NCBI GenBank assembly: GCA_041650835.1
Contig: JBAZKL010000004.1
Location: 166,900-230,899 of the forward strand
Reading direction: 5' to 3'
DNA from: Candidatus Omnitrophota bacterium
GTDB lineage: Bacteria; Omnitrophota; Gorgyraeia; Gygaellales; Profunditerraquicolaceae
DNA: 64,000 nucleotides
The position numbers were made by a program, and so were the translations under genes. Position 1 is the stretch's first letter. Each line of letters opens with the position of its first letter. Below the pieces are notes generated by a model. It searched no databases. It saw only the letters and a program-made list of their open reading frames with translations, and was not told the DNA's origin. Positions 8,951 through 35,130 of the stretch are shown one piece after another.

Positions 8951-9033
8951 ACGATCATTTTAACCGTATTTTATAAACAGGCGTTGACTGAAACACACTT
9001 TTTTCCAACCTTTCTCCACTTAAAGCGCGGAAA

Positions 9034-9073
9034 ACCAAAAAAAGGCGGCTGTCACGCGATTTGTGACGCCACC
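9034..9073 (-). terminator. rho-independent terminator of the beta-lactamase gene
   Basis: minus-strand hairpin ggcgtcacaaatcgcgtgacagccgcc followed by a T7 run, 75 bp downstream of the stop. Confidence 0.7.
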
Positions 9074-9146
9074 TTTCTCATTATTTCTATCTTTTCAATT
9101 TCTTTTATTATTTTCCTGCCGGTGAGGCAGGGCCTTTAACCTTAAC

Positions 9147-9929: not shown

Positions 9930-9978
9930 GATCGAACTCCTTTCACCCTCGCTTACTCCGGCCCCGACTGAAGTTATT

Positions 9979-10440
9979 TCAGGTGAGCGCCTGCGATTCT
10001 TTTATTTTTAACCAGGCTTCTTTGATCAAGCCGCTTTTAGATTCAAAATCTTTATCTGATTCCGTATTGATCCATACAGTAACCAGCGCGCCCGCTGTTT
10101 CGGCTATCTTCTTTTGGAGATACTCTTCTTCTGAACCCGCTGAGGCCTGAGCTTCTATTTCTTTTAACAGCTTGATCCTCATCTTAATATCTTTGTTTGA
10201 AAGGCCGTTACGGTTGTTTAAATCCTGATATTCCAGATAATACGGGTTGCCCGTTCCGCCTTTTTTGATCTCAATATAACAGTCACGGCCGGCATGTTCC
10301 AAGGCATTAACGATCAAGCCCGCGACATCGTCATCCAGGCCGGTATTATTCTTGATATAAAGGAGCATATCTTTTTTAGACTTAAATCGCGCCTCATTGC
10401 TATCGCGCGCCTGTCGTCTAAAGAAATTCCCGATGCCCAT
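9979..10440 (-). CDS. hypothetical protein
   Basis: 153-aa ORF, no recognisable motif. Confidence 0.5.
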   Translation of the reverse strand: MGIGNFFRRQARDSNEARFKSKKDMLLYIKNNTGLDDDVAGLIVNALEHAGRDCYIEIKKGGTGNPYYLEYQDLNNRNGLSNKDIKMRIKLLKEIEAQASAGSEEEYLQKKIAETAGALVTVWINTESDKDFESKSGLIKEAWLKIKESQALT

Positions 10441-17045: not shown

Positions 17046-17240
17046 TTATTTTTTTATAGTATTCTTTTTTGACAACCTGGATTTTATATATTCGTCCACT
17101 TCCTCTTTCGCGATCCTGTAGCCGTCACGGTACCCTTCCTTATAGGCCCATAACGTTTTGTTATGGATCAGGCGACTAACAAATCCTTCATTTACTCTTA
17201 AAACTTTAGCGGCTTCTTTTGCAAGGAGAATGCTATTCAT
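17046..17240 (-). CDS. excisionase-family helix-turn-helix DNA-binding protein
   Basis: MNSILLAKEAAKVLRVNEGFVSRLIHNKTLWAYK resembles the excisionase-family DNA-binding domain; start moved to the second Met. Confidence 0.55.
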   Translation of the reverse strand: MNSILLAKEAAKVLRVNEGFVSRLIHNKTLWAYKEGYRDGYRIAKEEVDEYIKSRLSKKNTIKK

Positions 17241-17435
17241 CGTCAAAACCCTTTTGAGGGGTACCTGCATGATAATTTAATTAACTTTAAATTATTTTAT
17301 TGTATTCTAATTTTGTCCGCGTATTCTGTAAATGGCTTGTTTCTGGTTTCTTTTGACTTTTTACCACTAAGCATTCCCAGGGCGCCGCCAAATAAAAAAT
17401 CCCCGGCGGGCCGTTTCCGTCGGGGATAAATAATG

Positions 17436-18840: not shown

Positions 18841-18910
18841 AGCGACTTGCCGATTTTATTCCTAATTTCTTTGTTTAGAGTGAGTTATTGAGTTATGACA
18901 CCAATTATTT
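18841..18910 (+). repeat. family A element, right half only (copy 5)
   Basis: cgacttgccgattttattcctaatttctttgtttagagtgagttattgagttatgacaccaatt. Confidence 0.7.
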
Positions 18911-19140
18911 CGCAAGAAACAGACATAACCGTTTATTTTGCTCATCCTCGTTCTCCATGGGAGCGAGGTACAAATGAAAACACCAATGCTTTAATACGCC
19001 AGTATTTCCCCAAAACTACTGATTTTTCAAAAATCTCGAAAAATAGACTTAAAGAGGTACAGGACGAATTAAACGATCGTCCGCGCAAAACTCTTGGATG
19101 GTATACACCTCACGAAAAATTTACTGAACTGTTGCGTTAG
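18895..19140 (+). pseudogene. IS30-family transposase C-terminal fragment with right inverted repeat (gttgcgttagcaac at about 19130..19150)
   Basis: 81 aa nearly identical to the C-terminus of the intact IS30 transposase at 29671..30666 (ITVYFAHP.SPWERGTNENTN...DRPRKTLGW.TPHE.F.ELLR). Confidence 0.85.
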
Positions 19141-19342: not shown

Positions 19343-22015
19343 TTACGGTTCCAGCTGCTTTTTGCGTTGCTTTCTTGTTTGATCACGACGACCAATAAGC
19401 TGCCTTGAAAAGTCCCTCAAGGAGCTTATATCAGCGAGCACTTCATCAGGTGCAGGACGATCACAATGCAAAGCCTTGGATTTGTCATGACCTGTCATCC
19501 AAGTACTAGCCTTAGATATATGAAGATCAACGCAATGAATATCAGAATCTTCAATAGCCACTCCATTGAGTCTGAGGGTCTGCACGCTGTTTCTGTATCG
19601 ACAAACTACCTTATCGAACAAATCATCCTCAATACAAGATTCCCAAGCTTCACGCAATAATCCGTAAACATAAGCCGCTTCTTTGTTGTACTCTACCATA
19701 TCTTGCTGATAAAAAGATTTAATCTTATTAACCAAATCTTCCAGGTATTGCGCCCGCTGTCCAACCTTCATGGCATGCCAAGGTACACTATTAATTGTAA
19801 TGCCCGCTGACTTTCCGTCACGGCGCAAAGTATGTACGGTGATACTAACTGGCGTACCGGCCTTGGCAAGCGCCATTCCGGCATCCTCCAATTCCATCAG
19901 GAAAGCTATGTTATGAGTAAATATAATGACCTGTCGTTTAAGCCCCTCTTTCGCGAGCCGTTCAGCAATCTTTCCAGTGAATATATGATCGAGCGATGAA
20001 ACTGGATCATCCAACACGATCGCGTTAACATGTGGGACAAGTTGAAGCTCAGCCAGAAAACCAGCAATTGCGATAACTCGTGCCTCACCTTCACTGAGAA
20101 TCTGAGAGATGCGTACCCGGCCTGATATATTAACGCCTTCCAACAAAATCTCGTGTGTAGTCTCCCCTACATCTCCACAAGGCTTAACCGATATAGACAA
20201 ACGATTCGCACCTAACGCAATAAGTTCCTTCTTAAAAGCACTTATCAACTCCGGAGTTAAGTTCTTCTTAATCACCACTGTGCCTTGCCGTGTAATTTCA
20301 TAAGTACTAAGGGTATCAGCCGCTCGCCGCAAATCGGCATTACGCCGAATCTTAGCAACAAGCGCGTAAATATCGACTTTCCTAGCGTTGAGCGCCTTCC
20401 GCGATTTAAGTTCTGTTATGCTGGCGATAAGCTTCTTATATTCCTCAGGCTTAGCCGCATTCGTAATTTCAGTAGCCTTTTGGGTTAATGTTTTGGCAAC
20501 CGATCGTAATGCTGCTTCTACAGATGCTGGCCATGGTGGCAATAATTTCGACCTTTGCGGATCTTCACCTTCTTTGAGTAAAACGAGTGCTGCAGATTTT
20601 CGCACGGCAATCGCTGTGTGATAGGTTCGCAAATCACTTGCCATCGGGACACCCAAACTACTAAGCTCATCACAAATCGAGTCAAGTGTTGCGGCAGTCA
20701 AAGGAGTCACAGCCTCTATCTTTTCCCTCAGCAACTTCAGCGCATTGCGCTTTGTAACTAACACAGTGTTTGTAGCATCTTCCATAAACTTCTTAAAACG
20801 GGCAAAACGGGCAACAGCCTCTTCACCTAGTGGTTGCTGGCAAAAAACACAGACCGCATCATCTGTTTTCGGAAAGGCCTGACCGGGGTAAGCTATCTCC
20901 TCAGAGTATTTCTTTGCTGCCTTATAGAGGATCTCCCATTGATCGGTGGAAGCAACACCTGGTAGCGTTTCGAACGTCTGCCGTTCAGCCACGGCAGCCG
21001 CACGTGCAAGCTGCGCAGCATTCACCTCTAATATAGCGTTCTGGATACCGTCATTCGTCAAATCAACGCACGCAGCTATGAGCTTTGTCACCGCACTTGC
21101 AGCATCGTTAATTCGCCCTTTAATTTTTTCGAGTCGGGCTACCTCTTGAGTTGCTTTCGTGGAATCTGATGTCCTCGCGAGCTCTTCTTGAGCAATCAAT
21201 TGTAACTCATCTTGCGGAGTCCAATTCGTCGCAGCTTGAATAACCTCTTCTTTGGTAGTCTCTAACAAAGACTCGAGAAATTTAGCTGCTGCGGTACCCG
21301 CCGCAATAGCTGAATCCTGAATCGGCATGATAGCCATTATCTCCGTTTCCACGTCTCCCCTAACTCTTTGGACGATCTCCGCCAGCTTCTGAAACACATC
21401 GCAACCATAGGGCAGATAGTTAATCTGATTTCGATCATCAGTAATGATTCGAGCGCAGCGTCCGTCAAATACTGTGATATTGGTCAAAACAGGGTCGACA
21501 GAAACACCTTGAGTCCAAGCAACATCCCTTGACTTATTATCCTGTTTAATCTTTATTATGGCGGTTGGCGCACCAGATGGTGCCTTAACGAAGACATTAG
21601 AAAGGATACGCTCATCCTTATCGCGGGCTTGGCACGCCAGTTTCAAGATTCGGGAATAACCAGACTTACCAGCGCCATTGTCACCATACACCACTGTAAC
21701 ACCACTCTCAGCGAAAGGCTGTGACGCGCCAGCCTTGATGATGTTGACATTTCTAACGTCATCAATTGATAGTAGTTTAACAGCAACTGTTGTTGTGGGA
21801 ACACCCGAGAAGTTACCCGCAACCGGGAGAATAGGCTTGAGTTTTTCGGGAAACGCTGCAATTTTTAAATCTGCTTTGGCCAAAGCCAATATCTCAGAAT
21901 AATCTTGAGCATTGAGCGGCTGGTCACCCTTAGTCAACAGACGACGAACAACGTCTCCTTGCCACGCAGGTAAAGAACTGGCCCATACAATAATATCGTC
22001 AATAGTAGCCATCAA
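19343..22015 (-). CDS. Rad50/SbcC/RecN-like ABC ATPase with long coiled-coil insert and ~75-aa N-terminal extension
   Basis: Walker A VVYGDNGAGKSGYSRIL, about 500 aa coiled coil, C-terminal signature/Walker B/H-loop (SEGEARVIAIA...IVLDDPVSSLD...IIFTHN); 890 aa. Confidence 0.8.
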   Translation of the reverse strand: MMATIDDIIVWASSLPAWQGDVVRRLLTKGDQPLNAQDYSEILALAKADLKIAAFPEKLKPILPVAGNFSGVPTTTVAVKLLSIDDVRNVNIIKAGASQPFAESGVTVVYGDNGAGKSGYSRILKLACQARDKDERILSNVFVKAPSGAPTAIIKIKQDNKSRDVAWTQGVSVDPVLTNITVFDGRCARIITDDRNQINYLPYGCDVFQKLAEIVQRVRGDVETEIMAIMPIQDSAIAAGTAAAKFLESLLETTKEEVIQAATNWTPQDELQLIAQEELARTSDSTKATQEVARLEKIKGRINDAASAVTKLIAACVDLTNDGIQNAILEVNAAQLARAAAVAERQTFETLPGVASTDQWEILYKAAKKYSEEIAYPGQAFPKTDDAVCVFCQQPLGEEAVARFARFKKFMEDATNTVLVTKRNALKLLREKIEAVTPLTAATLDSICDELSSLGVPMASDLRTYHTAIAVRKSAALVLLKEGEDPQRSKLLPPWPASVEAALRSVAKTLTQKATEITNAAKPEEYKKLIASITELKSRKALNARKVDIYALVAKIRRNADLRRAADTLSTYEITRQGTVVIKKNLTPELISAFKKELIALGANRLSISVKPCGDVGETTHEILLEGVNISGRVRISQILSEGEARVIAIAGFLAELQLVPHVNAIVLDDPVSSLDHIFTGKIAERLAKEGLKRQVIIFTHNIAFLMELEDAGMALAKAGTPVSITVHTLRRDGKSAGITINSVPWHAMKVGQRAQYLEDLVNKIKSFYQQDMVEYNKEAAYVYGLLREAWESCIEDDLFDKVVCRYRNSVQTLRLNGVAIEDSDIHCVDLHISKASTWMTGHDKSKALHCDRPAPDEVLADISSLRDFSRQLIGRRDQTRKQRKKQLEP

Positions 22016-22047
22016 TTACTCTCCAGGGTACCTGTCTACTGTAAAAT

Positions 22048-23580
22048 TCAGACTATTGGTCTATCCACTCCATCATCTTCCGATACATCAATAGGCAGTA
22101 AGGCGGTAGCCTCACCTACGGGAAGCTCCTGCACATCCTTGAGTTTTCTCCCGATGCCCCTTGACCTAACTTTAGCTTGTTCAATTGTGTCTGATGCTTG
22201 ATGTAACTTATTTTGCACTGCATCCAAAACATCGCCATACTTCGTCCACTCGGTTTTGACTGCAGCAAGAAGATTCCAGACCTCACTAGAACGCTTCTGG
22301 ATAGCAAGCGTTCGAAAACCCATCTGAAGACTGTTTAAAATAGACCATAGGGTAGTCGGACCAGCGATAACCACACGGCATTCCCGTTGGATAACCTCGA
22401 TCAAGCCCGTCCTACGAATGACTTCAGCAAAGAGACCCTCTATAGGTAAAAACAGAATACCGAAGTCCGTGGTTTTTGGCGGATTTAAATATTTTTTAGA
22501 GATGTCAGATGCACAAATCTTGACACGATTCTCCAACTGTTTACTCGCCGCTTCAACTCCTTCAATATCTGCTCTTTCTTGAGCCTCAATCAAACGCTGA
22601 TAGTCTTCAACAGGAAACTTAGCGTCAACCGGGAGCCAGACAACATCATCCTTATCAGTGCCTTTTCCCGGCAGTTTGATCGCAAACTCAACACGCTCGC
22701 CTCCCTCTTTCGTAGCCACGTTGATGCCAAACTGATCAGGATTGAGCACCTGCTCTAACAACGCCCCAAGTTGCACTTCACCCCACGTCCCACGTGTTTT
22801 GACATTTGTAAGTACCTTTTTAAGATCACCAACACCCGTAGCAAGCGTTTGCATCTCCCCAAGTCCTTTATGCACCATCTCCAGACGTTCACTGACTTGC
22901 TTAAAGGATTCACCCAAGCGCCTTTCCAATGTCCCCTGGAGTTTCTCGTCCACGGTCTGGCGCATTTGTTCAAGCTGCTTGGCGTTATCAATCTGCATGC
23001 TTTGAAGTTTACTTTCCACCGCGACCCTGACTGACTCCAGTTTTTTCTCATTTGAATCCGAAAGTCTACCAATCGCGGTTGACATAATTTCAAGTTGGGT
23101 TTTCTGAAGATTGGCCAATTCGCCCATTGTTTTAGTGGTGGCTTCCGTAATCCCCTTAAGAGTTGCAATAACCTCTTCCCTTAACTGTTTAGCTCCAGTG
23201 GCAGACTCGGCACGAACACCATCCAAGCGTTCACCGCTAGCCTTGGCGAAAGAAGCAAGTTGATTAGAAAAAACATCGAGTTGCCCCTTCTGCATATTGG
23301 CTATATCCATCATTCGTTGTACCACCGAATCGCCAAAGACTTTAAATGCTTCGGCGAGCTCCTGTCTTTGTTCTCTTGTCGTCTTACCCATTTCGTCTCT
23401 GCTCTGAGCCACTTCTTCTCTAACCGCATGCTCAGTACGTTCTTGTGCCTTTTCCAAAACATCAAGACGAGAGGCAATCAAAGAAGGATCAGTTTGGTAT
23501 AGTTTCTTTGAGATAACAAGCAAAACAGCTACCACGCCAACCAGCAAAACAAGAATCACAAATAACAGTATATTAATCAC
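22048..23580 (-). CDS. rmuC: DNA recombination protein RmuC family (TM anchor, coiled coil, RmuC nuclease-like domain)
   Basis: N-terminal TM, extensive coiled coil, C-terminal TTDFGILFLPIEGLFAEV...VIAGPTTLWSIL characteristic of RmuC. Confidence 0.8.
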   Translation of the reverse strand: MINILLFVILVLLVGVVAVLLVISKKLYQTDPSLIASRLDVLEKAQERTEHAVREEVAQSRDEMGKTTREQRQELAEAFKVFGDSVVQRMMDIANMQKGQLDVFSNQLASFAKASGERLDGVRAESATGAKQLREEVIATLKGITEATTKTMGELANLQKTQLEIMSTAIGRLSDSNEKKLESVRVAVESKLQSMQIDNAKQLEQMRQTVDEKLQGTLERRLGESFKQVSERLEMVHKGLGEMQTLATGVGDLKKVLTNVKTRGTWGEVQLGALLEQVLNPDQFGINVATKEGGERVEFAIKLPGKGTDKDDVVWLPVDAKFPVEDYQRLIEAQERADIEGVEAASKQLENRVKICASDISKKYLNPPKTTDFGILFLPIEGLFAEVIRRTGLIEVIQRECRVVIAGPTTLWSILNSLQMGFRTLAIQKRSSEVWNLLAAVKTEWTKYGDVLDAVQNKLHQASDTIEQAKVRSRGIGRKLKDVQELPVGEATALLPIDVSEDDGVDRPIV

Positions 23581-23618: not shown

Positions 23619-23837
23619 TTATACTTTTAATAATAATCTAATCGTTTGCAATAAATTTCTGTTCAATTCCTGCTGATTTATTCCTACCATTACCTTGATT
23701 GCTCTTCGCAGATTGATTGTCATTGCTCTAATCGACCTACCTTGCTCTACCTTGGTCAACTCGCGAAAAGTTTTACGGTTTCCTTGATGTGCTTTAATTG
23801 TCTTTCCACACTTTGGGCATTTATTATATTGTATCAT
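23619..23837 (-). CDS. transposase-like zinc-ribbon/HTH fragment (possible IS remnant)
   Basis: CPKCGKTIKAHQGNRKTF zinc ribbon; preceded by the same ~115-bp family B element that precedes the IS30 transposase gene. Confidence 0.35.
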   Translation of the reverse strand: MIQYNKCPKCGKTIKAHQGNRKTFRELTKVEQGRSIRAMTINLRRAIKVMVGINQQELNRNLLQTIRLLLKV

Positions 23838-24162: not shown

Positions 24163-25710
24163 TTAATAGTTTTTATTTTCGTCTTTATCTTTTAAATCTA
24201 AAGTTTTTCTGGCTTCTTTTACATCAATTTTAGCCTTGTGACCATGCTTCTCCAATAGATGTAACAGATTATTACCATTTAGTAATGTTAAAGGCTTATC
24301 TTGTGCAAACTTATATGCATCTGGACCATAATCGGTAGTTGTAACCAAAATTCCTTTCATAGCGCCTTCGTTCATTACAGTACCATATAAGTCTCGTACA
24401 GCAGATACCCCTACAATGTTTGTATATCTTTTAGCTTGTATAACAATTTTGCCTCCACGAACTGGATCTGGGTCAAAAGCTACTGCATCAACCCCTTCAT
24501 CTCTACTCGCCCTTGTAATTTTGACTTCGCCACCACTGGCTGCAAATTCCTTTTCAAATATTTCTCTAATGAGATTTTCAAAATCTTGCCAATCCATTGC
24601 TGCGATATTTGATTTTTCATCTACATTATCTACCACAGCATAGGGAGAGACAAACCTTTTATCCTCTCGGTTAATTTGCATAATAGGAGCTATAGCGGCA
24701 AGCCCGTGAAGTTTACTACTACCTATTCCTTTTAACTTTTTAAAACAAGTTTTTGGATCTACATTTTCTAAGTTAATTGCGAGAAAATCATCCCGAACAG
24801 CTTGAACCGACAAAATACATGCTACTGCTTCCTTGCCAGTTCCCTTGTCGATAAATCTTACATAACCATTAAATATTACGGAGGTGATCGTCCCCATGCT
24901 ATCATTTTTATATAGCTGGTAAATTGTTAATAAAGTAAGTTGGTATAATAAATCATCGTACAATTCATTAAAAGAACTGCCGGAAATATGCGATTCTTTA
25001 AACTCTGCTCTCGTGTCGTTATATTTAACTTCCTTTAGTGTGGGGATGTTTTCTTTTGATGGCAAAAAATAGTCTATAAGTAATATTCCCGACTCTGGAT
25101 TAAAATCAATTTGAAATTCTTGAGGAAATGTTTCCGGATAAAAAGATTGGCATTTTGATAGAAACATTTCGCAGTAATCTACAATTGCGTCTTTTTGTTT
25201 ATTGAAATAGTCTCCTTTTCGCTTTATGATTTCTTGGTTTTTTTCTTCTCTATTTTTAAAAAAATCTTCCCCTTCTTTTTCCCATTTCAAAACATCATCA
25301 TCATACTGTGTTAACATCTTTGAATTCTTCTCGGTTATCGATGAGCATGCTCTTTCCCATTCTAAATGTGCTTTTTGGAAATTATTCTTCATTTCTTCAA
25401 TTTCTTTCTGCTTTTCTTCAGGAAAAAGTATACCAAATAATGTACCTACCTTTGGCTTAAAAGATGGGTCTATCTCATGCGGCTCTTTCGGCAATTTTAA
25501 TGGTTTGGGCGAGAGAGGTTTTCTTTTTGAGTATTCTGATTTATCTAATAAATCCTCCCAAATAATGGTTGGAACTGTTTTTATAGATTCTTTTAAAATA
25601 TTTTTAATCCTACTTAGCTTTTCTTCTGCCTCTTTTGTCTTTACAGCTGCTAAGTCTTTTTTGTTCGACGGCAATAGTTTATAGATAGATTCTTTATCAA
25701 TAATAATCAT
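24163..25710 (-). CDS. Mrr-like restriction endonuclease catalytic domain protein with uncharacterised ~370-aa N-terminal region
   Basis: C-terminal DEGVDAVAF...KIVIQAKRY...GILVTTTDYGPDA matches the Mrr_cat (PD-(D/E)xK) pattern; N-terminal part lysine/glutamate-rich without a recognisable motif. Confidence 0.7.
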   Translation of the reverse strand: MIIIDKESIYKLLPSNKKDLAAVKTKEAEEKLSRIKNILKESIKTVPTIIWEDLLDKSEYSKRKPLSPKPLKLPKEPHEIDPSFKPKVGTLFGILFPEEKQKEIEEMKNNFQKAHLEWERACSSITEKNSKMLTQYDDDVLKWEKEGEDFFKNREEKNQEIIKRKGDYFNKQKDAIVDYCEMFLSKCQSFYPETFPQEFQIDFNPESGILLIDYFLPSKENIPTLKEVKYNDTRAEFKESHISGSSFNELYDDLLYQLTLLTIYQLYKNDSMGTITSVIFNGYVRFIDKGTGKEAVACILSVQAVRDDFLAINLENVDPKTCFKKLKGIGSSKLHGLAAIAPIMQINREDKRFVSPYAVVDNVDEKSNIAAMDWQDFENLIREIFEKEFAASGGEVKITRASRDEGVDAVAFDPDPVRGGKIVIQAKRYTNIVGVSAVRDLYGTVMNEGAMKGILVTTTDYGPDAYKFAQDKPLTLLNGNNLLHLLEKHGHKAKIDVKEARKTLDLKDKDENKNY

Positions 25711-25885: not shown

Positions 25886-26356
25886 TTATCCGTTCAAGTC
25901 GGGAACAGTATACTCGATAAGTCTATCCTCAAGATTTCTTCTCTCCACATCCGAGAGATTACTGGTCTGGCAAAACCATAATTTTATTCTTTTGCGTTTG
26001 TAATGATTAAGAACAAATTTGTTTATTTTGCAGTTAGTAGATTGACCCCTTACAAAACAATTACGAGGACTTATTAGCCCGTAACCACTATTTATACGAT
26101 TATACAAATCCTGGCATTCTCCAACATAGCGGATTTTGTTATTTAGTGTAAAAAAATAGAGTCCACTTCTCCCACTCCACTTCGGGAGAATCTTGAATCC
26201 ACAAAATCCACCTTTCCCATATCTGTGTAAAGCATACCCTTTCTTGTTATCATATCGGCTTTGCGGATAACTAATGATTACGGTACCATTCTTACTGCGC
26301 ATTAACTCTATCTTACAAACCTCGAGAAAAACAAAACCTAAAATCTTCTTAATCAT
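25886..26356 (-). CDS. GIY-YIG nuclease-domain protein
   Basis: GLYFFTLNNKIRYVGECQDLYNRIN (GIY...YVG...R...N) and downstream conserved Glu (RRNLEDRLIE). Confidence 0.65.
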   Translation of the reverse strand: MIKKILGFVFLEVCKIELMRSKNGTVIISYPQSRYDNKKGYALHRYGKGGFCGFKILPKWSGRSGLYFFTLNNKIRYVGECQDLYNRINSGYGLISPRNCFVRGQSTNCKINKFVLNHYKRKRIKLWFCQTSNLSDVERRNLEDRLIEYTVPDLNG

Positions 26357-26707: not shown

Positions 26708-29389
26708 TCAACTTCCGATCAAACGCTTTAGTCTCTTAGCCGCATCTCTTGTTTCTTGCGCAAATTGATGTTTTGCTAAAAAAGCATCATCAACAAACCC
26801 AAGTGACTTCGTTATAAAGTCAGTACCGTACTTAAACCAATTGGGCTTCTCTTTAAAATAAGCCTCTACCGCCGGCTTGGCTTTTTCGATAACCCCATCT
26901 ATATCTTTTAGTTTCGAATATTTAGCAGTATCTATATCATTCAAAATCTTTATATTTAGTTCTTCAGAAACAGGTTTCTCTGAAAATTTCCACTCGGTAT
27001 ATGCTTTTAATGTTTCCCGATTTATAGCTTGATTAAGAAAAATATCCTTTTCTGAATCGCTAATTATTTCTTTATCTCGTCTTTTAATCTCCTCAATAAC
27101 CTTCTGCAAGTTTCTAAATGATTCGTAAATTGGAATATCAATGAAACCTTTAATTTTTCTATCACGTTTATTTTTCTGAACAAATTCTAAGTTATATTTT
27201 GTACCATTAGTATTCAAATTTATTATTAAATAATTTGCGGAATTTTCATTTACCAGGTTTTTATGATTTTCGTAATACTTTTCAGACATATCTTTTATTA
27301 CTAGGATTTGTCGGCTATATTTGGGAATTTTACGGTAGAAACAAAGATGGGGTATTTTACTATTTATAACATCTTCTCTTATCGATACCATAGTTGAGCC
27401 AAAGAGATTTGGATCAGGAGGAAAGCTTGCAAGCAAAAGATTAGTTAGCTGAACATAATTCTTAAAAAATCGCTCCATTATAATAATAATTTGGTTTTTG
27501 AATTGTTCTATATAAGCAATGATCTTCTTTGTTTGATTCTCTAATACTTCCCTGGGAATATGTTGGGGTATATTTTTTTGTAATTTCTCTAGATATTTTT
27601 GATTGCTTTGATAAATAGTTAGCACATCCATATCGCAATATTGTTGTATGTCATTATTATGTACTTTCGTTTCATCATATCCCTCTTCTGGTTTTTCGTC
27701 TTTTACAAGAATTCTTATATCGTCAACCTCATTTACATATAAAGAAAACTTCTCTAGGCTCTCTAAGAAATTATTTTCATAATCTAGCAGTACTTGCGGA
27801 GTAGCTGGAACGACCATTTTTGATTGTGTCCAGGCATATGCGTAAAACGCAATATTCTTGCCCTCAATTGTTTTTACAATCTCGCCTTTTAATAAAATTA
27901 CGCCTAATCTTAATAAATATTCTATTAAATTTTTCTGAGCTAAATATATTCTTAATTGTAGATTATCTTCACGAGTAGGCGGATCTTTACTTAAATGTAA
28001 TTCTTGAAAAAAGGGAATATCAATAAATTTATAGAGCCCGGTTAATAATAGATTATTTTGGTACCAGCAAGAAGGAGCCCAATATTTATTTAAATCAAAT
28101 ATTTGCCCAAGTGCTTTCTGAATATTTGCATGAAAAAGCTCTGTTTCTTCAAAGGACTCAATCTGTAAAACCGGCCTATCTTCCTTATCATAATCACTTA
28201 TGTAATCTCTAATCCTAAAATGCAGTTCAAAGAAATCTGATTTCGCTTGGTAACAAAGAAGATTCCTGAAATCTTGATATATTTGCTTATCGATAAATTT
28301 ATCCTTCGATTCGTCAATTATTTCATCAACATATGCTTCTAAATCGTCAAAATTAGGACGACTAATAAATATTTTGTCATTAAAGAATGTGTAAGCTATT
28401 TCTCTCTCTTCTTTTGATTTTTCAACAACATCATAAATATCCTTCCCAGCTATAAAAACAAAGAGCCCAGAAGATAGCGTAAATAAATTCTTGAAGGTTT
28501 TTATAATATCTGTTATCTTGACTCTCTCGGTTTCTTTAATCTTATCCATTTCATCTATAACAAAAATTATTTTGGAAGATTCTTTCGATAATGAAATCTC
28601 ATCCAAGAGGGCATAAAGATCATATTCTAGGTTACTAATACTTTTGTCAGTTATATATAATTCTTCAACAGAACTGCTCTCGCTTGCTTTTTTACTTTTT
28701 GTTATACTCTTTAATATTTTGTATGATAGCGTCTTTGGTAAAAGAAAGGACAAAGAACCTAATAAAATATTTAAAACTAGATTCTCTTTAGTCGACAAAT
28801 AGAAAAAGCTCATACCAACAATTATCCCTAAAGAGCTAAGGAAATTTCTTATTTGTTCAGAATCAACGCTATATTTTCCTTCTATTTCTTGCTGATCATT
28901 TTCTTCCTGTTCTGTTTCCTTTTTCAATTTAATTTCTTCTTTAATTTCCGATTTTTCAGAAATTGCTTTTTGATACAGCTTACCTAATTTTCTCTGTGAA
29001 TCATCATCTAGCTTGCTTCTCGCGGCAGTATATAATCTTCTTATTAAATTAATAATTATCTTTTCTTCTAGTCTCTCTGGACTTATTTCTAGAACGTCTT
29101 TACCTTCTGCTAAACTTTCTTCAATAAGCAGCTGAGATGCATTAATCAAAACAGGAATAATCTTTTTATTCTTTGCCGTAGCTTTATATAAAGCTTCATA
29201 AACCAGAGCTGTCTTACCAACACCTCGCTCACCACTGACCAAAAGACAACCCTTTTCTCTTCTTAAGAACCAATTTTCAATTTTATTTCTTTCCTCTTTT
29301 CTTCCAACAAAATGTCCCTGTGGTTTTTCATAATGAGGAAAGTAATCCCAGTCTTTTTTAAGTGCCAATTTTAATTCTTCATTTACCAT
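26708..29389 (-). CDS. KAP-family P-loop NTPase (Walker A, TM-helix insertion, Walker B) with large C-terminal region
   Basis: FVGRKEE...GERGVGKT Walker A; two hydrophobic helices (IIVGMSFFYLS...LLGSLSFLL) inserted before Walker B KIIFVIDEMD; 893 aa, extremely A+T-rich gene. Confidence 0.7.
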   Translation of the reverse strand: MVNEELKLALKKDWDYFPHYEKPQGHFVGRKEERNKIENWFLRREKGCLLVSGERGVGKTALVYEALYKATAKNKKIIPVLINASQLLIEESLAEGKDVLEISPERLEEKIIINLIRRLYTAARSKLDDDSQRKLGKLYQKAISEKSEIKEEIKLKKETEQEENDQQEIEGKYSVDSEQIRNFLSSLGIIVGMSFFYLSTKENLVLNILLGSLSFLLPKTLSYKILKSITKSKKASESSSVEELYITDKSISNLEYDLYALLDEISLSKESSKIIFVIDEMDKIKETERVKITDIIKTFKNLFTLSSGLFVFIAGKDIYDVVEKSKEEREIAYTFFNDKIFISRPNFDDLEAYVDEIIDESKDKFIDKQIYQDFRNLLCYQAKSDFFELHFRIRDYISDYDKEDRPVLQIESFEETELFHANIQKALGQIFDLNKYWAPSCWYQNNLLLTGLYKFIDIPFFQELHLSKDPPTREDNLQLRIYLAQKNLIEYLLRLGVILLKGEIVKTIEGKNIAFYAYAWTQSKMVVPATPQVLLDYENNFLESLEKFSLYVNEVDDIRILVKDEKPEEGYDETKVHNNDIQQYCDMDVLTIYQSNQKYLEKLQKNIPQHIPREVLENQTKKIIAYIEQFKNQIIIIMERFFKNYVQLTNLLLASFPPDPNLFGSTMVSIREDVINSKIPHLCFYRKIPKYSRQILVIKDMSEKYYENHKNLVNENSANYLIINLNTNGTKYNLEFVQKNKRDRKIKGFIDIPIYESFRNLQKVIEEIKRRDKEIISDSEKDIFLNQAINRETLKAYTEWKFSEKPVSEELNIKILNDIDTAKYSKLKDIDGVIEKAKPAVEAYFKEKPNWFKYGTDFITKSLGFVDDAFLAKHQFAQETRDAAKRLKRLIGS

Positions 29390-29644: not shown

Positions 29645-30716
29645 ATTTCATAGACTGTAGATTCAAATTACTAACGCAACAACTCGCTGAATCTTTCGTG
29701 AGGCGTATGCCAGCCAAGAGTTTTTCTTGGCCGGTCGTTTAATTCATCTTGAACTTCTTTTAATCTGGTCCTTGAGATCTTTGAAAAATCTGTTCCTTTA
29801 GGGAAATACTGCCTTAATAAGGAATTTGTGTTTTCATTAGTTCCCCGCTCCCAGGGGGAATGCGGGTGAGCAAAATAAACGGTTATTTTTGTTTCTTTTG
29901 TAAATAGCTTATGCTGACACATCTCACCACCCTGGTCGTAGGTAAGCGTTCTTTTCAATCCTGGGGGTAAACTGCGGAATTCTTCGCCAAAAGATCTTCT
30001 GATAGTTGAGGCGTCCTGGTTCCGTAGTTTTACTAAGAAGGCCATGCGTGTCGTACGCTCAACGAGGGTTCCAATGGCTGAGGCATTACGTCGCCCGATT
30101 ATTAAATCGCCTTCCCAGTGTCCAGGGATAGTGCGGTCGGCTACTTCTTGCGGGCGTTCTTCGATGCTAAAGTAATCCTGTATGCTGCCTGGTTTCCCTC
30201 GTCTGCCATCTTTTTTGCGGCGGTATTTATGGTTTCTTCTAAGATAAGATATAAGCCTGCGCTTGAAGGTGCCGCGAGGTAAAACATAGATATGGGAGTA
30301 AATTGTTTCGTGAGAGACGCGCATAGACATATCATTAGGATACAATACAATGAGTCTCTTGGCAATCTGTTCAGGTGACCAGTTTTTTGTTAAATAAGAA
30401 AGAACGAGTTTTCTTAACAGCGCGTTAGTGGCAAGTTTACGATTCTTGCGTATCTTGTGACGCGTTTTGATCGACTGCTGCTGAACGAAAATAGCACGGT
30501 AATATTTTAATTCTACTACCCCTGACTGACGTATTTCTCTGGATATACTACTGGGCGACCTGTTGAGAATACCGGCTATTGTTCGCAAACTGGATCCTAA
30601 TGCAATTTGACGGCTGATCTCTTCGCGCTCAAAGAGCGAGATTCGGTGATATTTTATCATTCGCAACTCCTTTCATCCGCTATTATAGCAGATTAAAGTG
30701 TTGCGTTAGTTGCTTG
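29645..30716 (-). mobile_element. intact IS30-family insertion sequence (about 1.07 kb)
   Basis: terminal inverted repeats ...ttactaacgcaacaac (left) and gttgcgttagttgc (right) flank a full-length transposase gene. Confidence 0.8.
29671..30666 (-). CDS. IS30-family transposase (DDE)
   Basis: N-terminal HTH, HWEGDLIIG, ...YFAHPHSPWERGTNENTNSLLRQ... IS30 signature; 331 aa. Confidence 0.9.
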   Translation of the reverse strand: MRMIKYHRISLFEREEISRQIALGSSLRTIAGILNRSPSSISREIRQSGVVELKYYRAIFVQQQSIKTRHKIRKNRKLATNALLRKLVLSYLTKNWSPEQIAKRLIVLYPNDMSMRVSHETIYSHIYVLPRGTFKRRLISYLRRNHKYRRKKDGRRGKPGSIQDYFSIEERPQEVADRTIPGHWEGDLIIGRRNASAIGTLVERTTRMAFLVKLRNQDASTIRRSFGEEFRSLPPGLKRTLTYDQGGEMCQHKLFTKETKITVYFAHPHSPWERGTNENTNSLLRQYFPKGTDFSKISRTRLKEVQDELNDRPRKTLGWHTPHERFSELLR

Positions 30717-30726
30717 AGTCTAAGGA

Positions 30727-30837
30727 CCGCTGTATCCAACCTACTATAATCCTTACACTTACAAAACAATTAGATAGGTTCAAGCAAAAGAATTGTTTTG
30801 CAACTTAAAGAAGCATTATCGGTTACGTACAGCGTCC
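30727..30837 (+). repeat. family B element copy 2
   Basis: ccgctgtATCCAACctactataatccttacacttacaaaacaatt...aattgttttgcaactt...ggttacgtacagcgtcc. Confidence 0.8.
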
Positions 30838-30865
30838 TTAGGATTTCCATGACTCCTTAAACCTA

Positions 30866-31783
30866 TTAATGTATGCCAGGAAGCTGAATAACCTTTTGCG
30901 ATTGTATAAAGGCAGCTCCCATATGGTTTTCGATAATTTTACAAGCAGTGGTACTGGATAAAGTATGAATAAAAGTATGATGTACACTCAATGCAGCATT
31001 TTGAATGTCTTGGTTGTCTTCTAACATTGATATGATCAAACCGATCTCTTTACACCTCTCAGGGGGCAGATGTCTTGAATGAGATAATGTTTCATCATGG
31101 CTTCCTATTACACTGACAATTTTGTTAATAGAATCAGTTTTTTGAGGTTCGGGTAAATTCGCAAACATTCCTGTGCCCAACCATTTCTTAACAAGATACT
31201 CTGACCAAGTAATTGCCTTTTGACATTCGCCAATAAATGCTGGAGGATATTTAGCAATTATTGGTTGCCAAACTGGTATTTTTGCAGAATCCAGTTTAAT
31301 CTCCTCATAAGCTTTCGAGAATTCTTCAATCACACCGTGACATGGTATTCCATTAAATTGAGGATCTATTGGACCCAAGCTGGAATGTTTCCCCATTAGT
31401 ACTTCTTTACAAGCACATGCTATCATTGTACCACCAGACATTGAAAGCTGCGGAACGATCGCTCTTATATTAGTCCCAAATAAACTCCTCAAGTAATCAA
31501 CAAGAGATTCTGTAGCAGCAGTTTCACCTCCCGGAGTATGCAAAATCAAATCTAATCCTTTCGACCAATCCATACCTTTTAAGGCTGACATAAATCCATT
31601 TTTATCATTGTCATTTATAGAAACCAGTTGGGGATCAGCCTTTTTTTGCAGCCATCCTGAATAATAAGCAATTACATTACGTCCTGTTAAATCATATAAT
31701 TTTTTTAAATAGCTGCGCCGAACAATATCTTGCGTACTACCAAGTTGGTGTATTTCTTCTCCTAATTCTTTCCAATTACCCAT
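30866..31783 (-). CDS. SDH-family (S49/ClpP-fold) serine protease
   Basis: LILHTPGGE and SMSGGTMIACAC motifs typical of the ClpP/SppA fold (serine dehydrogenase proteinase family); 8-bp overlap with upstream small ORF. Confidence 0.65.
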   Translation of the reverse strand: MGNWKELGEEIHQLGSTQDIVRRSYLKKLYDLTGRNVIAYYSGWLQKKADPQLVSINDNDKNGFMSALKGMDWSKGLDLILHTPGGETAATESLVDYLRSLFGTNIRAIVPQLSMSGGTMIACACKEVLMGKHSSLGPIDPQFNGIPCHGVIEEFSKAYEEIKLDSAKIPVWQPIIAKYPPAFIGECQKAITWSEYLVKKWLGTGMFANLPEPQKTDSINKIVSVIGSHDETLSHSRHLPPERCKEIGLIISMLEDNQDIQNAALSVHHTFIHTLSSTTACKIIENHMGAAFIQSQKVIQLPGIH

Positions 31784-32038: not shown

Positions 32039-32170
32039 CAAAAAAAACAGTGTCAGAACTCGATGACTATCTAGAATTATTGGACTTGTGAATTAATTCC
32101 GCGTCTTGCCGATTTTATTCGTAATTTATTTATTTACAGTGAGTTATTGAATTCTAACGCTAATTATTTA
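32039..32170 (+). repeat. family A element copy 8 (abuts cyclase stop codon)
   Basis: aaaaaaaacAGTGTCAGAACTCgatgac ... GAaTTCTaACgCTaatt. Confidence 0.85.
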
Positions 32171-33124
32171 TCGAAACCTCACCTTATGAACTTTATAAGG
32201 TTTATCGTCTTCACCTTTATACTGCCAATCATCTCTTAGTTTTATCTCGTTGCAGCCTTCGCGCCACGTTGTATGTAAATTCCTCTCGGTTATATCTCCC
32301 AGAAGGATATCTCCTGGATTACCTAAGCTCTGAATTTTCGCGGCTAAACTAACAACTGAACCAATTATGTCCTTGTGCCTTTTTGTGTTAGGGCTACCGA
32401 TAGCTATTATACAGGCATCTCCAGAATCTAAGCCTATTCTAATATTGATGGTAGGGTAACCATTTTCCTCAAGCATTTGATTTACTCCACTATATATCAG
32501 CCTTCTTACTGTTAAAGAGCAGTCTAGAGCCAAATCATTTTTTATTATAAAGCTTGGCTCAGGGAAATATGCTATCAGCCCATCTCCGGTATATTTTAAA
32601 ACATGCCCATGGAACTTAGGAACAATTTCGCTCATTTCATATAAAATGACAGATATTAATTTCGCATATTTCTGGAGATCCAGGCTTTTTGATAGCTTTG
32701 TTGAACCAGCTAAATCTACACACATAATAACGAATCCCAAGCTATCAGTGGCTAATGACTCCAAGAACTCTTCTGACTTATCCTTAAAAACATAAGGTTC
32801 TTCTTCCGATTTTAATCTTTCACGAATCAACGGTATTCTCTCTTGAATATATTTCTCTGCATCACCGATTTCTTGCCGTTGCAGATACATTGGCTTTCCA
32901 GCTAATTGCTTTGCAAAATCAGCAAATACGTTTTCAGGAAAAATAATTTTATCAAATTTATCATATAAATACCGCTTCCCATTTATGTCTTTCCATTCAT
33001 ACCTTCTGGGGTCTGGGAGTAATCTCACTGTAAATATCTTTTTATCATCATCCACAGAAATAACTTCTTGAACAAAGTCCATCCTAAAAGCTTTGGTCTT
33101 ATCAGACACGCTTGAATTCTCCAT
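32168..33124 (-). CDS. class III nucleotidyl (adenylate/guanylate-type) cyclase with ~130-aa N-terminal extension
   Basis: cyclase-homology-domain motifs VIMCVDLAGSTKL, KYTGDGLIAYF, IRIGLDSGDACI, GSVVSLAAKIQS. Confidence 0.75.
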   Translation of the reverse strand: MENSSVSDKTKAFRMDFVQEVISVDDDKKIFTVRLLPDPRRYEWKDINGKRYLYDKFDKIIFPENVFADFAKQLAGKPMYLQRQEIGDAEKYIQERIPLIRERLKSEEEPYVFKDKSEEFLESLATDSLGFVIMCVDLAGSTKLSKSLDLQKYAKLISVILYEMSEIVPKFHGHVLKYTGDGLIAYFPEPSFIIKNDLALDCSLTVRRLIYSGVNQMLEENGYPTINIRIGLDSGDACIIAIGSPNTKRHKDIIGSVVSLAAKIQSLGNPGDILLGDITERNLHTTWREGCNEIKLRDDWQYKGEDDKPYKVHKVRFR

Positions 33125-33144
33125 ATCTTTTATTTAACTATCTT

Positions 33145-35045: not shown

Positions 35046-35047
35046 AG

Positions 35048-35130
35048 CGGAGAGGCAGGGATTCGAACCCTGGGACCTTGCAGTCACGCGCTCTCCAAGC
35101 GCGCGCATTCGACCACTCTGCCACCTCTCC
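35048..35130 (-). tRNA. tRNA-Ser (anticodon GGA)
   Basis: minus-strand cloverleaf: acceptor GGAGAGG/CCTCTCC, anticodon stem CGCGC/GCGCG with loop TTGGAGA, long variable arm, T-arm CAGGG-TTCGAAT-CCCTG, discriminator G. Confidence 0.85.

What the first reader, a model, noticed from the sequence alone, without database searches (positions are those of the whole stretch)
19343..23580. RmuC-family nuclease-like protein immediately upstream of a 890-aa Rad50/SbcC-like ABC ATPase inside the island
Seen: rmuC-like gene (TM anchor + coiled coil + RmuC domain) followed 32 bp later, same strand, by an SMC-like ABC ATPase. The ATPase has a split Walker A / signature-Walker B-H-loop head, a ~500-aa coiled coil and an unusual ~75-aa N-terminal extension. 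The pair is flanked by an IS30 remnant and a transposase-like fragment. Established: ATPase + nuclease pairs with coiled coils (SbcCD, Lamassu, Gabija, Septu, PARIS, OLD) are recurrent anti-phage modules. RmuC is otherwise a solitary housekeeping gene. Inference: candidate two-gene defence or recombination-control module that I cannot assign to a named system.
Basis: partly seen in the sequence, partly recalled or inferred. Interest (0 to 1): 0.7.

Follow-up and report, generated by a model that had tools for sequence, protein, structure and literature searches.

The report
RmuC nuclease plus RloC-like ATPase cassette
Two neighbouring genes in a bacterial anti-virus island, a membrane-anchored DNA-cutting enzyme and a Rad50-like ATPase built like the tRNA-cutting defence protein RloC, travel between bacteria as one unit, although each is more often found without the other.

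Summary
On the minus strand, a 510-aa TM/coiled-coil RmuC protein (22048-23580) lies 32 bp upstream of an 889-aa SMC/Rad50-like ABC ATPase (19343-22012). Both sit in a low-GC defence island of a Candidatus Omnitrophota MAG.

The ATPase is not unassignable. It matches PADLOC's single-gene candidate PDC-S06 over its full length (1.7e-187). It also meets every published RloC criterion: a CxxC zinc hook, an R-x3-E-x50-H triad, and motif spacing collinear with Geobacillus RloC.

RmuC is not only housekeeping. This mobile lineage has the architecture of Shield's ShdA.

The pairing is real but facultative:
- Of 27 non-redundant close ATPase loci, 11 have an intact RmuC directly upstream. Two have remnants and 14 have none.
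- The upstream RmuCs belong to two lineages only 23-32% identical to each other.
- Two distant relatives have RmuC downstream instead.
- Nucleotide homology between pair loci covers exactly the two genes.
- Sampled RmuC homologues mostly lack the ATPase; one is fused operonically to SIR2-HerA.

Best reading: a co-transferred operon of two self-sufficient defence genes, probably layered DNA attack plus DNA-damage-triggered tRNA cleavage. Cooperation and RNase activity are inferred.

Novelty: a new variant of known kinds. Interest: moderate.

The parts
22048..23580 (-). RmuC-family nuclease gene, 'type A' lineage, 510 aa. It has an N-terminal TM anchor, a coiled coil and a PD-(D/E)xK RmuC domain.
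   Evidence: Pfam RmuC 1.5e-76 over residues 201-490. GTG start behind AAGGAGG. 100% identical to an NCBI Omnitrophota MAG protein annotated RmuC.
23509..23580 (-). RmuC residues 1-24, a predicted single transmembrane anchor (INILLFVILVLLVGVVAVLLVIS).
   Evidence: Kyte-Doolittle mean 3.2-3.4 over 19-residue windows. Sequence checked by translation.
22111..22980 (-). RmuC nuclease domain (residues 201-490). The conserved core residues E268 (WGE motif), D319-x-K321 and E381 are all present.
   Evidence: Pfam domain limits. These residues are at least 95% conserved across 31 type A, type B and ordinary RmuC sequences. Codons verified.
22016..22047 (-). 32-bp intergenic spacer carrying the ATPase ribosome-binding site (GGAGAG). 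No terminator is predicted, so the genes are probably co-transcribed.
   Evidence: Sequence. Terminator scan negative on this strand. A single blastn alignment runs through the spacer in L082.
19343..22012 (-). RloC-like / PADLOC PDC-S06 ABC ATPase gene, 889 aa plus stop.
   Evidence: PADLOC PDLC04891 1.7e-187 over residues 2-874. Pfam AAA_13 1.2e-19. AlphaFold model pLDDT 84 with SMC/Rad50/JetC/LmuB-like head.
21788..22012 (-). Family-specific N-terminal extension (residues 1-75), predicted as three helices. Function unknown.
   Evidence: Helices 2-11, 16-28 and 35-48 at pLDDT 82-93. W10, W17, R23 and R24 are at least 90% conserved. No Pfam match. About 72 residues longer than Geobacillus RloC before Walker A.
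21662..21685 (-). Walker A motif, GDNGAGKS (residues 110-117).
   Evidence: Translation. G110, G115, K116, S117 and G118 are invariant in 72 sequences.
20840..20851 (-). CxxC zinc-hook motif (C388-V-F-C391) at the apex of the coiled-coil insert.
   Evidence: C388 and C391 are invariant in 72 sequences down to 31% identity. They sit in the low-confidence apex (385-396) between long helices. This matches RloC's CX2C definition.
20003..20098 (-). ABC signature LSEGE (residues 639-643) through Walker B/D-loop IVLDDP (665-670). The H-loop H700 lies at 19913-19915.
   Evidence: Translation. Invariant columns. Rad50/SMC signature-region hits in PDB.
19346..19780 (-). C-terminal helical domain (residues 745-889) carrying R787-x3-E791-x50-H842. 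It is the putative RloC-type anticodon-nuclease (HEPN-like) effector domain.
   Evidence: E791, E795, R805 and H842 are invariant and R787 is at least 90% conserved. The motif fits the RloC triad R-x3-E-x36-52-H. The domain occurs only at the C-terminus of ~860-900-aa relatives. Fold searches are inconclusive.

Best explanation
This is a co-transcribed two-gene cassette carried in a defence island.

Gene 1 encodes a membrane-anchored, coiled-coil RmuC-type PD-(D/E)xK DNase. It belongs to a horizontally mobile lineage and has the same architecture as ShdA of the Shield system.

Gene 2 encodes an RloC-like protein of the PADLOC PDC-S06 family. It has a Rad50-like ABC ATPase head, split by a coiled coil with a CxxC zinc hook, followed by a C-terminal helical domain with the RloC Arg-x3-Glu...His triad. 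It also carries a family-specific N-terminal three-helix domain.

Each gene is probably able to act alone. The two have nevertheless been joined repeatedly and travel as a unit, so they most likely work as a layered defence:
1. The RmuC nuclease attacks or nicks incoming DNA at the membrane.
2. The zinc-hook ATPase senses DNA ends or damage.
3. As shown for RloC, the ATPase then switches on its C-terminal RNase to cut tRNA anticodon loops and stop translation (abortive infection).

What is shown: gene structure, family assignments, motif conservation, recurrence and co-mobility of the pair, and island context. What is inferred: nuclease and RNase activity, DNA-end sensing, and any cooperation between the two proteins.
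For: Identity of the ATPase:
- PADLOC PDC-S06 at 1.7e-187 over the full length.
- ABC motifs and C388xxC391 are invariant in 72 homologues.
- The triad R787-x3-E791-x50-H842 fits the published RloC definition, R-x3-E-x36-52-H in a 658-897-aa protein.
- Landmark spacing matches Geobacillus RloC (K44, C291, D572, R692, E696, H737). Zinc hook to Walker B is 281 there versus 280-281 here. Walker B to the triad Arg is 120 versus 118-119. Arg to Glu is 4 versus 4.
- One relative (L068) has genes resembling RhuM and ORF6N by eye directly upstream (not scanned). RhuM-like genes are a reported RloC-family neighbourhood.

Identity of RmuC:
- Pfam RmuC 1.5e-76 and an N-terminal TM anchor.
- The catalytic core residues are conserved.
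- Shield's ShdA is a membrane RmuC protein that is sufficient for defence on its own.

Linkage:
- Eleven of 27 non-redundant close ATPase loci have an intact RmuC immediately upstream on the same strand, 10-151 bp away. No other neighbour family recurs more than three times.
- Two RmuC lineages are involved. They are only 23-32% identical to each other but 67-96% identical within each lineage.
- In distant ATPase relatives (L007, L015) a type-A-like RmuC lies downstream instead.
- Nucleotide homology with L082 and L108 spans window 23596-19342, which is exactly the two genes, in unrelated flanks.
- A type B pair occurs in a Binataceae MAG and a Nitrospira MAG with RmuC 74% identical between them.

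Context: a defence island.
Against: - Fourteen of 27 close ATPase loci have no RmuC. Two keep only RmuC remnants beside an intact ATPase (L088, L102), so the ATPase does not need RmuC in cis.
- None of the eight independent RmuC type A/B homologue contexts I sampled has the ATPase. Nor do three plasmid loci.
- No ATPase feature is specific to the RmuC-linked members. The N- and C-terminal domains are conserved throughout the family.
- The C-terminal domain has no Pfam match. The PADLOC PrrC model aligns only to the ATPase part.
- PDC-S06 has no experimental validation in the papers I found.
Confidence: 0.5

Rival explanations
1. The two genes are neighbours only. Two autonomous single-gene defence systems, a Shield-like RmuC nuclease and a PDC-S06/RloC-like ATPase, became adjacent in defence islands. 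They are co-inherited because they are tightly linked, with no functional or physical interaction.
For: - Both families occur mostly without each other.
- RmuC remnants sit beside intact ATPases in L088 and L102.
- RmuC type B also sits directly upstream of an unrelated system, SIR2-HerA. Type-A-like RmuC sits beside other large proteins on plasmids.
- ShdA alone is sufficient for defence.
- PADLOC treats PDC-S06 as a single-gene candidate.
Against: - The adjacency arose with two RmuC lineages only 23-32% identical to each other, and in both gene orders. It is always co-oriented, with gaps of 10-151 bp.
- RmuC is the only recurrent neighbour among the close ATPase loci.
- The cassette is conserved as a unit, spacer included, at 82-88% nucleotide identity in unrelated contexts.
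Confidence: 0.32
2. The two proteins form an obligate nuclease-ATPase machine. In this view the ATPase is the Rad50/SbcC-like or LmuB/JetC-like DNA-end or loop sensor and RmuC is its dedicated DNase, playing the part of Mre11/SbcD, LmuA or JetD. The C-terminal domain of the ATPase would then be a partner-binding or regulatory module rather than an RNase.
For: - The head fold resembles Rad50, SMC, JetC and LmuB, and there is a weak LmuB HMM hit at 1e-10.
- Both proteins carry long coiled coils that could pair.
- The operon organisation is tight.
Against: - Most family members, including very close ones, lack RmuC yet keep intact ORFs with the same conserved N- and C-terminal domains and the R/E/H residues.
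- Remnant RmuC genes lie beside intact ATPases.
- No Mre11/SbcD, LmuA/LmuC or JetABD-type partner is present.
Confidence: 0.12
3. This is a housekeeping rmuC. The RmuC gene would be the genome's ordinary recombination-limiting rmuC, and a mobile ATPase gene simply inserted downstream of it, with rmuC acting as an insertion hotspot.
For: - In L060 and L068 an ordinary-looking RmuC lies about 2 kb upstream of a distant ATPase relative, with other genes in between. That fits island insertion near rmuC.
- No second rmuC is seen in the 64-kb window.
Against: - The window's RmuC belongs to a lineage 68-96% identical across MAGs labelled Omnitrophota, Ramlibacter and Nanoarchaeota.
- The same lineage occurs on accessory plasmids of Rhizobium, Sinorhizobium, Ralstonia and Sphingomonas at 44-51% identity. 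Chromosome-sized Sinorhizobium records match at only 26-28%.
- Its other contexts are IS elements, toxin-antitoxin genes and R-M genes.
- Homology between pair loci starts 15 bp upstream of rmuC itself, so rmuC is part of the mobile block.
Confidence: 0.04

Closest known systems
RloC (anticodon nuclease; Geobacillus kaustophilus and Acinetobacter baylyi prototypes)
   Same: - ABC ATPase head split by a coiled coil with an apical CxxC zinc hook.
- C-terminal domain with an Arg-x3-Glu...His triad.
- Size within the published range.
- Near-identical spacing of the zinc hook, Walker B and triad.
- Usually a stand-alone gene that spreads laterally.
   Different: - It has an extra conserved N-terminal domain of about 72-75 aa.
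- The Glu-His spacing is 50 residues, against 41 in the Geobacillus protein.
- I could not show sequence-level similarity of the C-terminal domain to a validated RloC or PrrC. RNase activity is untested.
- Here the gene is paired in an operon with an RmuC nuclease.
PADLOC PDC-S06 (single-gene phage defence candidate)
   Same: Full-length match to HMM PDLC04891 at 1.7e-187, plus matches to three further PDC-S06 models.
   Different: PDC-S06 is defined as a single gene and I found no experimental validation for it. Here, and in about 40% of close relatives, it forms a two-gene cassette with RmuC.
Shield system (ShdA, with ShdB-E accessories)
   Same: A membrane-anchored protein with a coiled coil and a C-terminal RmuC nuclease domain, located in defence islands, with variable accessory genes downstream.
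   Different: - Shield was reported only in Pseudomonas.
- Its partners are ShdB (M15 peptidase-like), ShdC, ShdD and ShdE, and none is an ATPase.
- The PADLOC library gave no Shield model hit for this RmuC, only a weak RT-RmuC match at 7.7e-12.
PrrC-EcoprrI (anticodon nuclease guarded by a type I R-M enzyme)
   Same: The logic of a DNA-targeting nuclease genetically linked to an ABC-ATPase/RNase second line of defence.
   Different: PrrC has no coiled-coil or zinc-hook insert and is always embedded in hsd genes. Here the partner is a single RmuC nuclease and the linkage is facultative.
SbcCD / Mre11-Rad50, Lamassu (LmuB) and Wadjet (JetC)
   Same: The SMC/Rad50-type head with a long coiled coil is structurally similar. 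All follow the ATPase-plus-nuclease theme.
   Different: No Mre11/SbcD phosphoesterase, LmuA/LmuC or JetA/B/D partner is present. HMM similarity is confined to ATPase motifs (LmuB 1e-10). These proteins lack the C-terminal triad domain.

Membership tests
RmuC family (Pfam PF02646) | Match to the RmuC domain model above the gathering threshold | tested here: met
   257.8 bits against a cutoff of 26, E 1.5e-76, profile positions 1-288 of 291.
RmuC family (Pfam PF02646) | Intact PD-(D/E)xK-type catalytic core | tested here: met
   E268 (WGE motif), D319-x-K321 and E381 are at least 95% conserved in 31 aligned RmuC sequences and present here. An acidic residue aligns with the 'PD' aspartate of the other lineages.
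Shield (ShdA) | Membrane anchor plus C-terminal RmuC domain | tested here: met
   TM segment at residues 1-24. RmuC domain at 201-490. Architecture as described for ShdA.
Shield (ShdA) | Sequence membership in the Pseudomonas ShdA clade, or a Shield HMM hit | tested here: inconclusive
   The PADLOC scan returned no Shield/ShdA model, only RT-RmuC at 7.7e-12 and coiled-coil ZorA hits. I cannot tell whether this 2023 library holds a ShdA model. No ShdA sequence was available for direct comparison.
Shield (ShdA) | Accessory genes ShdB, ShdC, ShdD or ShdE downstream (subtypes II-IV) | tested here: not met
   The downstream gene is an ABC ATPase. No M15-peptidase-like or other Shield partner is present.
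RloC | ABC ATPase motifs (Walker A, signature, Walker B/D-loop, switch His) | tested here: met
   GDNGAGKS, LSEGE, IVLDDP and H700 are present and invariant in 72 homologues.
RloC | Coiled-coil insert with a central CX2C zinc hook splitting the ATPase head | tested here: met
   Helical insert at residues 241-599 with C388-V-F-C391 at a low-confidence apex. Both cysteines are invariant. Definition taken.
RloC | C-terminal Arg-x3-Glu-x36-52-His catalytic triad | tested here: met
   R787-x3-E791-x50-H842. E791 and H842 are invariant and R787 is at least 90% conserved. Definition taken.
RloC | Size 658-897 aa and collinearity with validated Geobacillus RloC landmarks | tested here: met
   889 aa. 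Spacings here versus Geobacillus RloC: zinc hook to Walker B 280-281 versus 281; Walker B to Arg 118-119 versus 120; Arg to Glu 4 versus 4.
RloC | Detectable homology of the C-terminal domain to RloC/PrrC (HEPN) nuclease domains | tested here: inconclusive
RloC | Wobble-nucleotide-excising anticodon nuclease activity, regulated by ATPase, DNA and the zinc hook | not testable with these tools
   This needs expression and tRNA cleavage assays.
PADLOC PDC-S06 | Full-length match to a PDC-S06 HMM | tested here: met
   PDLC04891 at 1.7e-187, residues 2-874 on profile 1-854 of 858. PDLC04893 at 2e-150.
SbcCD / Mre11-Rad50 | Adjacent Mre11/SbcD calcineurin-like phosphoesterase partner | tested here: not met
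   The only adjacent nuclease is RmuC. The neighbours I scanned show no such domain.
Lamassu, Gabija, Septu, PARIS | Strong match to LmuB, GajA, PtuA or AriA together with the cognate partner (LmuA/C, GajB, PtuB, AriB) | tested here: not met
   Only weak, motif-level hits: LmuB 1e-10, AriA 1.3e-7, PtuA 6e-5. No cognate partner genes are nearby.

The most novel reading that the evidence does not exclude
RmuC and the RloC-like ATPase form a true two-component immune module. The membrane-tethered RmuC nuclease makes or holds DNA ends on incoming DNA. The zinc-hook ATPase reads those ends and licenses its C-terminal RNase. This would be a self-contained nuclease-plus-guard pair that evolved at least three times, with two RmuC lineages and in both gene orders. 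It would supply the missing in-cis DNA-processing partner long postulated for RloC.
Probability: 0.25. Interest if true: 0.65.

Novelty: new variant of a known kind. Interest (0 to 1): 0.48.

Why it matters
What switches RloC on in cells has been open since 2008. In vitro its RNase responds to DNA and to DNA breaks, and its discoverers suggested that an associated DNA enzyme tethers it to DNA, yet RloC is rarely linked to one. A naturally recurring operon that couples an RloC-like protein to a dedicated DNase would let that idea be tested directly. The result also shows that Shield-type RmuC nucleases are not confined to Pseudomonas. They are widespread, mobile companions of several different defence modules, including PDC-S06 and SIR2-HerA. 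Finally, it gives the unvalidated PADLOC candidate PDC-S06 a concrete mechanistic hypothesis.

Tried and rejected
- Foldseek against afdb50 was unavailable.
- A profile search of the ATPase family against PDB sequences gave only weak Rad50/SMC signature-region hits. No solved RloC or PrrC turned up.
- Pfam scans of the isolated N-terminal 90 aa and C-terminal 179 aa found nothing credible.
- A phmmer search with the C-terminal domain against 1.8 billion representatives found it only at the C-terminus of same-architecture proteins or in fragments. It therefore gave no bridge to PrrC.
- tblastn against plasmids showed the ATPase family on 281 plasmids, annotated only as 'AAA family ATPase'.
- Two proteins that clustered with RmuC (L093, 645 aa; L098, 589 aa) share only short, weak matches with it. 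By eye their N-termini look like OLD/AAA_15-type ATPases (not scanned). I excluded both.
- No tandem DNA repeat was detected in the RmuC coiled-coil region.
- The window holds no second rmuC and no second copy of the ATPase.
- I considered and rejected SbcCD, Lamassu, Gabija, Septu and PARIS membership: the HMM hits are weak and the partners are absent.

Full report
**1. Observation**

The region holds two co-oriented minus-strand ORFs.

The upstream ORF (22048-23580, 510 aa) starts with GTG behind AAGGAGG.
- It matches Pfam RmuC at 1.5e-76 over residues 201-490.
- Its first 24 residues form a strongly hydrophobic segment, so it has a membrane anchor.
- The region between anchor and nuclease domain gives coiled-coil-type hits.

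The downstream ORF most likely starts at the ATG at 22012, behind GGAGAG. That gives 889 aa, identical to an NCBI protein from a Candidatus Omnitrophota MAG contig of 365,851 bp.
- It matches AAA_13, SMC_N and AAA_21.
- It has canonical Walker A, signature, Walker B and H-loop motifs.
- An AlphaFold model (pLDDT 84) shows a bipartite ABC head, a helical insert of about 360 aa, an N-terminal three-helix domain and a C-terminal helical domain.
- Foldseek places the model among SMC, Rad50, JetC and LmuB heads.

The genes are 32 bp apart and no terminator is predicted between them.

**2. Surroundings**

The pair lies in a low-GC stretch from roughly 13 to 35 kb. That stretch also carries:
- an Mrr-type type IV restriction enzyme (PADLOC 1e-55);
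- an 893-aa STAND/AAA_16 NTPase;
- an intact-looking IS30 transposase;
- an SDH-type protease;
- a Pycsar-like cyclase next to a TIR protein;
- an HTH_17 (excisionase-like) gene.

The stretch is bounded by tRNA-Ser at 35047-35130. This is a defence island.

**3. What the ATPase is**

It matches PADLOC's single-gene candidate PDC-S06 over its full length (PDLC04891, 1.7e-187). Hits to LmuB, AriA, PtuA and PrrC are weak and confined to ATPase motifs.

Across 72 homologues down to 31% identity, these are conserved: C388 and C391 (invariant), and in the C-terminal domain E791, E795, R805 and H842 (invariant) plus R787 (at least 90%).

The published definition of RloC is an ABC ATPase split by a coiled coil with a CX2C zinc hook, followed by a C-terminal Arg-x3-Glu-x36-52-His triad, in a protein of 658-897 aa. 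The window protein fits all of these, with R787-x3-E791-x50-H842.

Its landmarks are also collinear with the experimentally mutated residues of Geobacillus RloC (K44, C291, D572, R692, E696, H737):

| Interval | Geobacillus RloC | Window protein |
|---|---|---|
| Zinc hook to Walker B | 281 | 280-281 |
| Walker B to triad Arg | 120 | 118-119 |
| Arg to Glu | 4 | 4 |
| Glu to His | 41 | 50 (residues between, as in x50) |

The ~72-residue offset at Walker A equals the N-terminal extension.

Limits of this assignment:
- I could not compare the protein with an actual RloC sequence or with the DefenseFinder model.
- The C-terminal domain has no Pfam hit.
- It occurs only at the end of same-architecture proteins (1,179 cluster representatives).
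- Its fold matches are not significant, although HEPN structures recur among the weak hits.

So RloC-like architecture is shown, while RNase activity is inferred.

The family is strongly mobile. Homologues at 60-89% identity come from MAGs labelled Omnitrophota, Patescibacteria, Smithella, Binataceae, Bacteroidales and Kapabacteria. The family also occurs on 281 plasmids.

**4. What the RmuC is**

It is not an ordinary housekeeping rmuC.
- More than 100 clusters are 68-96% identical to it, from MAGs labelled Ramlibacter, Nanoarchaeota and Omnitrophota. Their lengths range from 510 to 886 aa, which I attribute to coiled-coil size (compare the L098 insertion).
- Relatives at 44-51% identity lie on accessory plasmids of Rhizobium, Sinorhizobium, Ralstonia and Sphingomonas, and partial matches at 49-58% lie on gut Bacteroidales and Clostridia plasmids. 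Chromosome-sized Sinorhizobium records match at only 26-28%.
- Their contexts are IS elements, toxin-antitoxin genes and restriction-modification genes.
- The nuclease core (E268, D319-x-K321, E381) is intact.

The architecture is that of ShdA, the core of the Shield system, which is sufficient for phage defence on its own. ShdA-like proteins have also been noted inside DISARM and type I R-M loci and next to CoCoNuTs.

**5. Is the pairing real?**

I collected 80 genome loci and 33 metagenome loci encoding ATPase relatives.

In the broad family (about 30% identity) no partner is conserved. This agrees with PADLOC's single-gene status.

Among 27 non-redundant loci of the close clade (at least 50% identity) with usable upstream DNA:

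| Upstream state | Loci |
|---|---|
| Intact RmuC, type A | 5 (window, L081, L082, L098, L108) |
| Intact RmuC, type B | 6 (L001, L002, L107, L110, L113, L128) |
| RmuC remnant or fragment upstream (L088 adjacent; L102 about 1.5 kb away), ATPase intact | 2 (L088, L102) |
| No RmuC; assorted R-M or defence genes instead | 14 |

- Every intact RmuC lies immediately upstream on the same strand, 10-151 bp away.
- Type A members are 73-96% identical to each other, and type B members 67-82%.
- Types A and B are only 23-32% identical to each other, while the linked ATPases are 66-89% identical.
- On an ATPase tree the A-linked genes form one subclade, with an RmuC-less member nested inside it. The B-linked and unlinked genes are interspersed.
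- Contig-length matching suggests five more pairs, not verified for adjacency.
- In the distant clade, L007 and L015 have a type-A-like RmuC (52-58% identical) immediately downstream instead.
- L060 and L068 have an ordinary RmuC about 2 kb upstream with other genes in between.

Nucleotide homology between the window and L082 or L108 runs from window 23596 to 19342. That is 15 bp upstream of the RmuC start to one base beyond the ATPase stop, in a single alignment through the spacer, with unrelated flanks. With the RmuC-less loci L105 and L083 the homology covers the ATPase ORF only.

The RmuC-ATPase unit is therefore inherited and moved as a cassette. The junction has formed with at least two RmuC lineages and in both gene orders.

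**6. The view from the RmuC side**

None of the five type A and two type B homologue queries on longer contigs has the ATPase. These queries returned eight distinct contexts: L114-L117, L118-L120 as two, L121-L123 as one, and L124.

One type B gene, in the Terriglobales loci L121-L123, overlaps by 4 bp the start of a SIR2_2 gene that is followed by a DUF87/HerA ATPase. That is the SIR2-HerA defence system.

RmuC thus behaves as a modular upstream companion of different defence modules.

**7. Interpretation**

- Shown: a co-transcribed, co-mobile cassette of a Shield-like RmuC nuclease and an RloC-like PDC-S06 ATPase in a defence island. The linkage is recurrent but facultative.
- Inferred, best explanation (0.5): layered defence. 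RmuC attacks incoming DNA. The zinc-hook ATPase responds to DNA ends or damage, as shown for RloC in vitro and in Acinetobacter (abstracts). It then activates a C-terminal RNase that disables tRNA.
- Rival, neighbours only (0.32).
- Rival, an obligate Mre11-Rad50-like or Lamassu-like nuclease-ATPase complex (0.12). The many RmuC-less but intact ATPases, and the conservation of the triad domain regardless of RmuC, weaken this.
- Rival, housekeeping rmuC with an inserted gene (0.04).

**8. Novelty and verdict**

Both parts belong to known or candidate kinds: RloC/PDC-S06 and RmuC/Shield-like. Full-text searches for RmuC together with RloC or 'ABC ATPase' found no description of this pairing.

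I rate it a new variant of known kinds, of moderate interest. It offers a natural system for testing how RloC-type proteins are triggered, and it extends Shield-type RmuC nucleases far beyond Pseudomonas.

The defence-module idea and the recurrence hold. The claims that the ATPase is unassignable, that RmuC is otherwise only housekeeping, and that this is a strict two-gene system do not.

Noticed in passing
window 32168-33609 (- strand): A 318-aa Guanylate_cyc protein matches PADLOC PycC models (4e-20). Directly upstream is a 154-aa TIR-domain protein (TIR_2 1e-16, weak CAP12/Pycsar TIR hit). Together they look like a Pycsar-type cyclase-plus-TIR effector pair.
   Followed up: partly
window 24163-25710 (- strand): A 515-aa protein with a C-terminal Mrr_cat domain matches PADLOC mREase_IV at 1e-55. 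This is a type IV methyl-directed restriction enzyme lying about 600 bp upstream of the RmuC gene.
   Followed up: partly
window 26708-29389 (- strand): An 893-aa STAND-like NTPase (AAA_16, nSTAND3 and NPHP3_N hits) lies in the lowest-GC part of the island (GC about 0.29). It has no PADLOC hit and may be an Avs-like sensor. The adjacent 156-aa ORF (25886-26356) matches nothing.
   Followed up: no
window 29671-31783 (- strand): An apparently intact IS30-type transposase (HTH_38 plus rve, 331 aa) lies next to a 305-aa SDH-type ClpP-like serine protease.
   Followed up: partly
window 13000-35130: A low-GC block (0.29-0.47, against about 0.5 in the flanks) ends at tRNA-Ser(GGA) 35047-35130. It also holds an HTH_17 excisionase-like ORF (17046-17270) and an rve_3 fragment (18895-19140). 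This fits an integrated island at a tRNA gene. I did not look for an integrase or for attachment repeats.
   Followed up: no
L121-L123, positions 5001-10199 (Terriglobales metagenome contigs): A type B RmuC gene overlaps by 4 bp the start of a SIR2_2 gene, which is followed by a DUF87/HerA ATPase. This is an apparent RmuC + SIR2-HerA three-gene operon, conserved on many contigs.
   Followed up: partly
proteins P0121-P0240; L098 4246-5964: RmuC type A homologues that are 68-82% identical vary from 510 to 886 aa. In L098 the extra length is an insertion in the coiled-coil region, with a duplicated 'SGE(R/K)LDG(V/I)R(A/T)ES(A/T)TGAKQLREEV' unit. This suggests selection on coiled-coil length.
   Followed up: no
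L126 7733-11647 (Sphingomonas plasmid pC33); L127 7057-8991 (Anaerotruncus plasmid): Plasmid-borne type-A-like RmuC genes are followed on the same strand by a 1,304-aa DUF4011 protein in one case and by an ABC-F ATPase in the other. These may be further RmuC-plus-large-NTPase combinations.
   Followed up: no
L068 6524-7917: Two ORFs lie directly upstream of a distant PDC-S06 ATPase relative. By eye they resemble a RhuM-like protein and an ORF6N-domain protein; I did not scan them. RhuM-like genes are a neighbourhood reported for PrrC/RloC-family HEPN proteins.
   Followed up: no
window 23619-23837 (- strand): A 72-aa ORF with a CxxC...H zinc-ribbon-like start lies just upstream of RmuC. It has no family hit and lies outside the homology block shared with other pair loci, so it is probably not part of the cassette.
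   Followed up: partly
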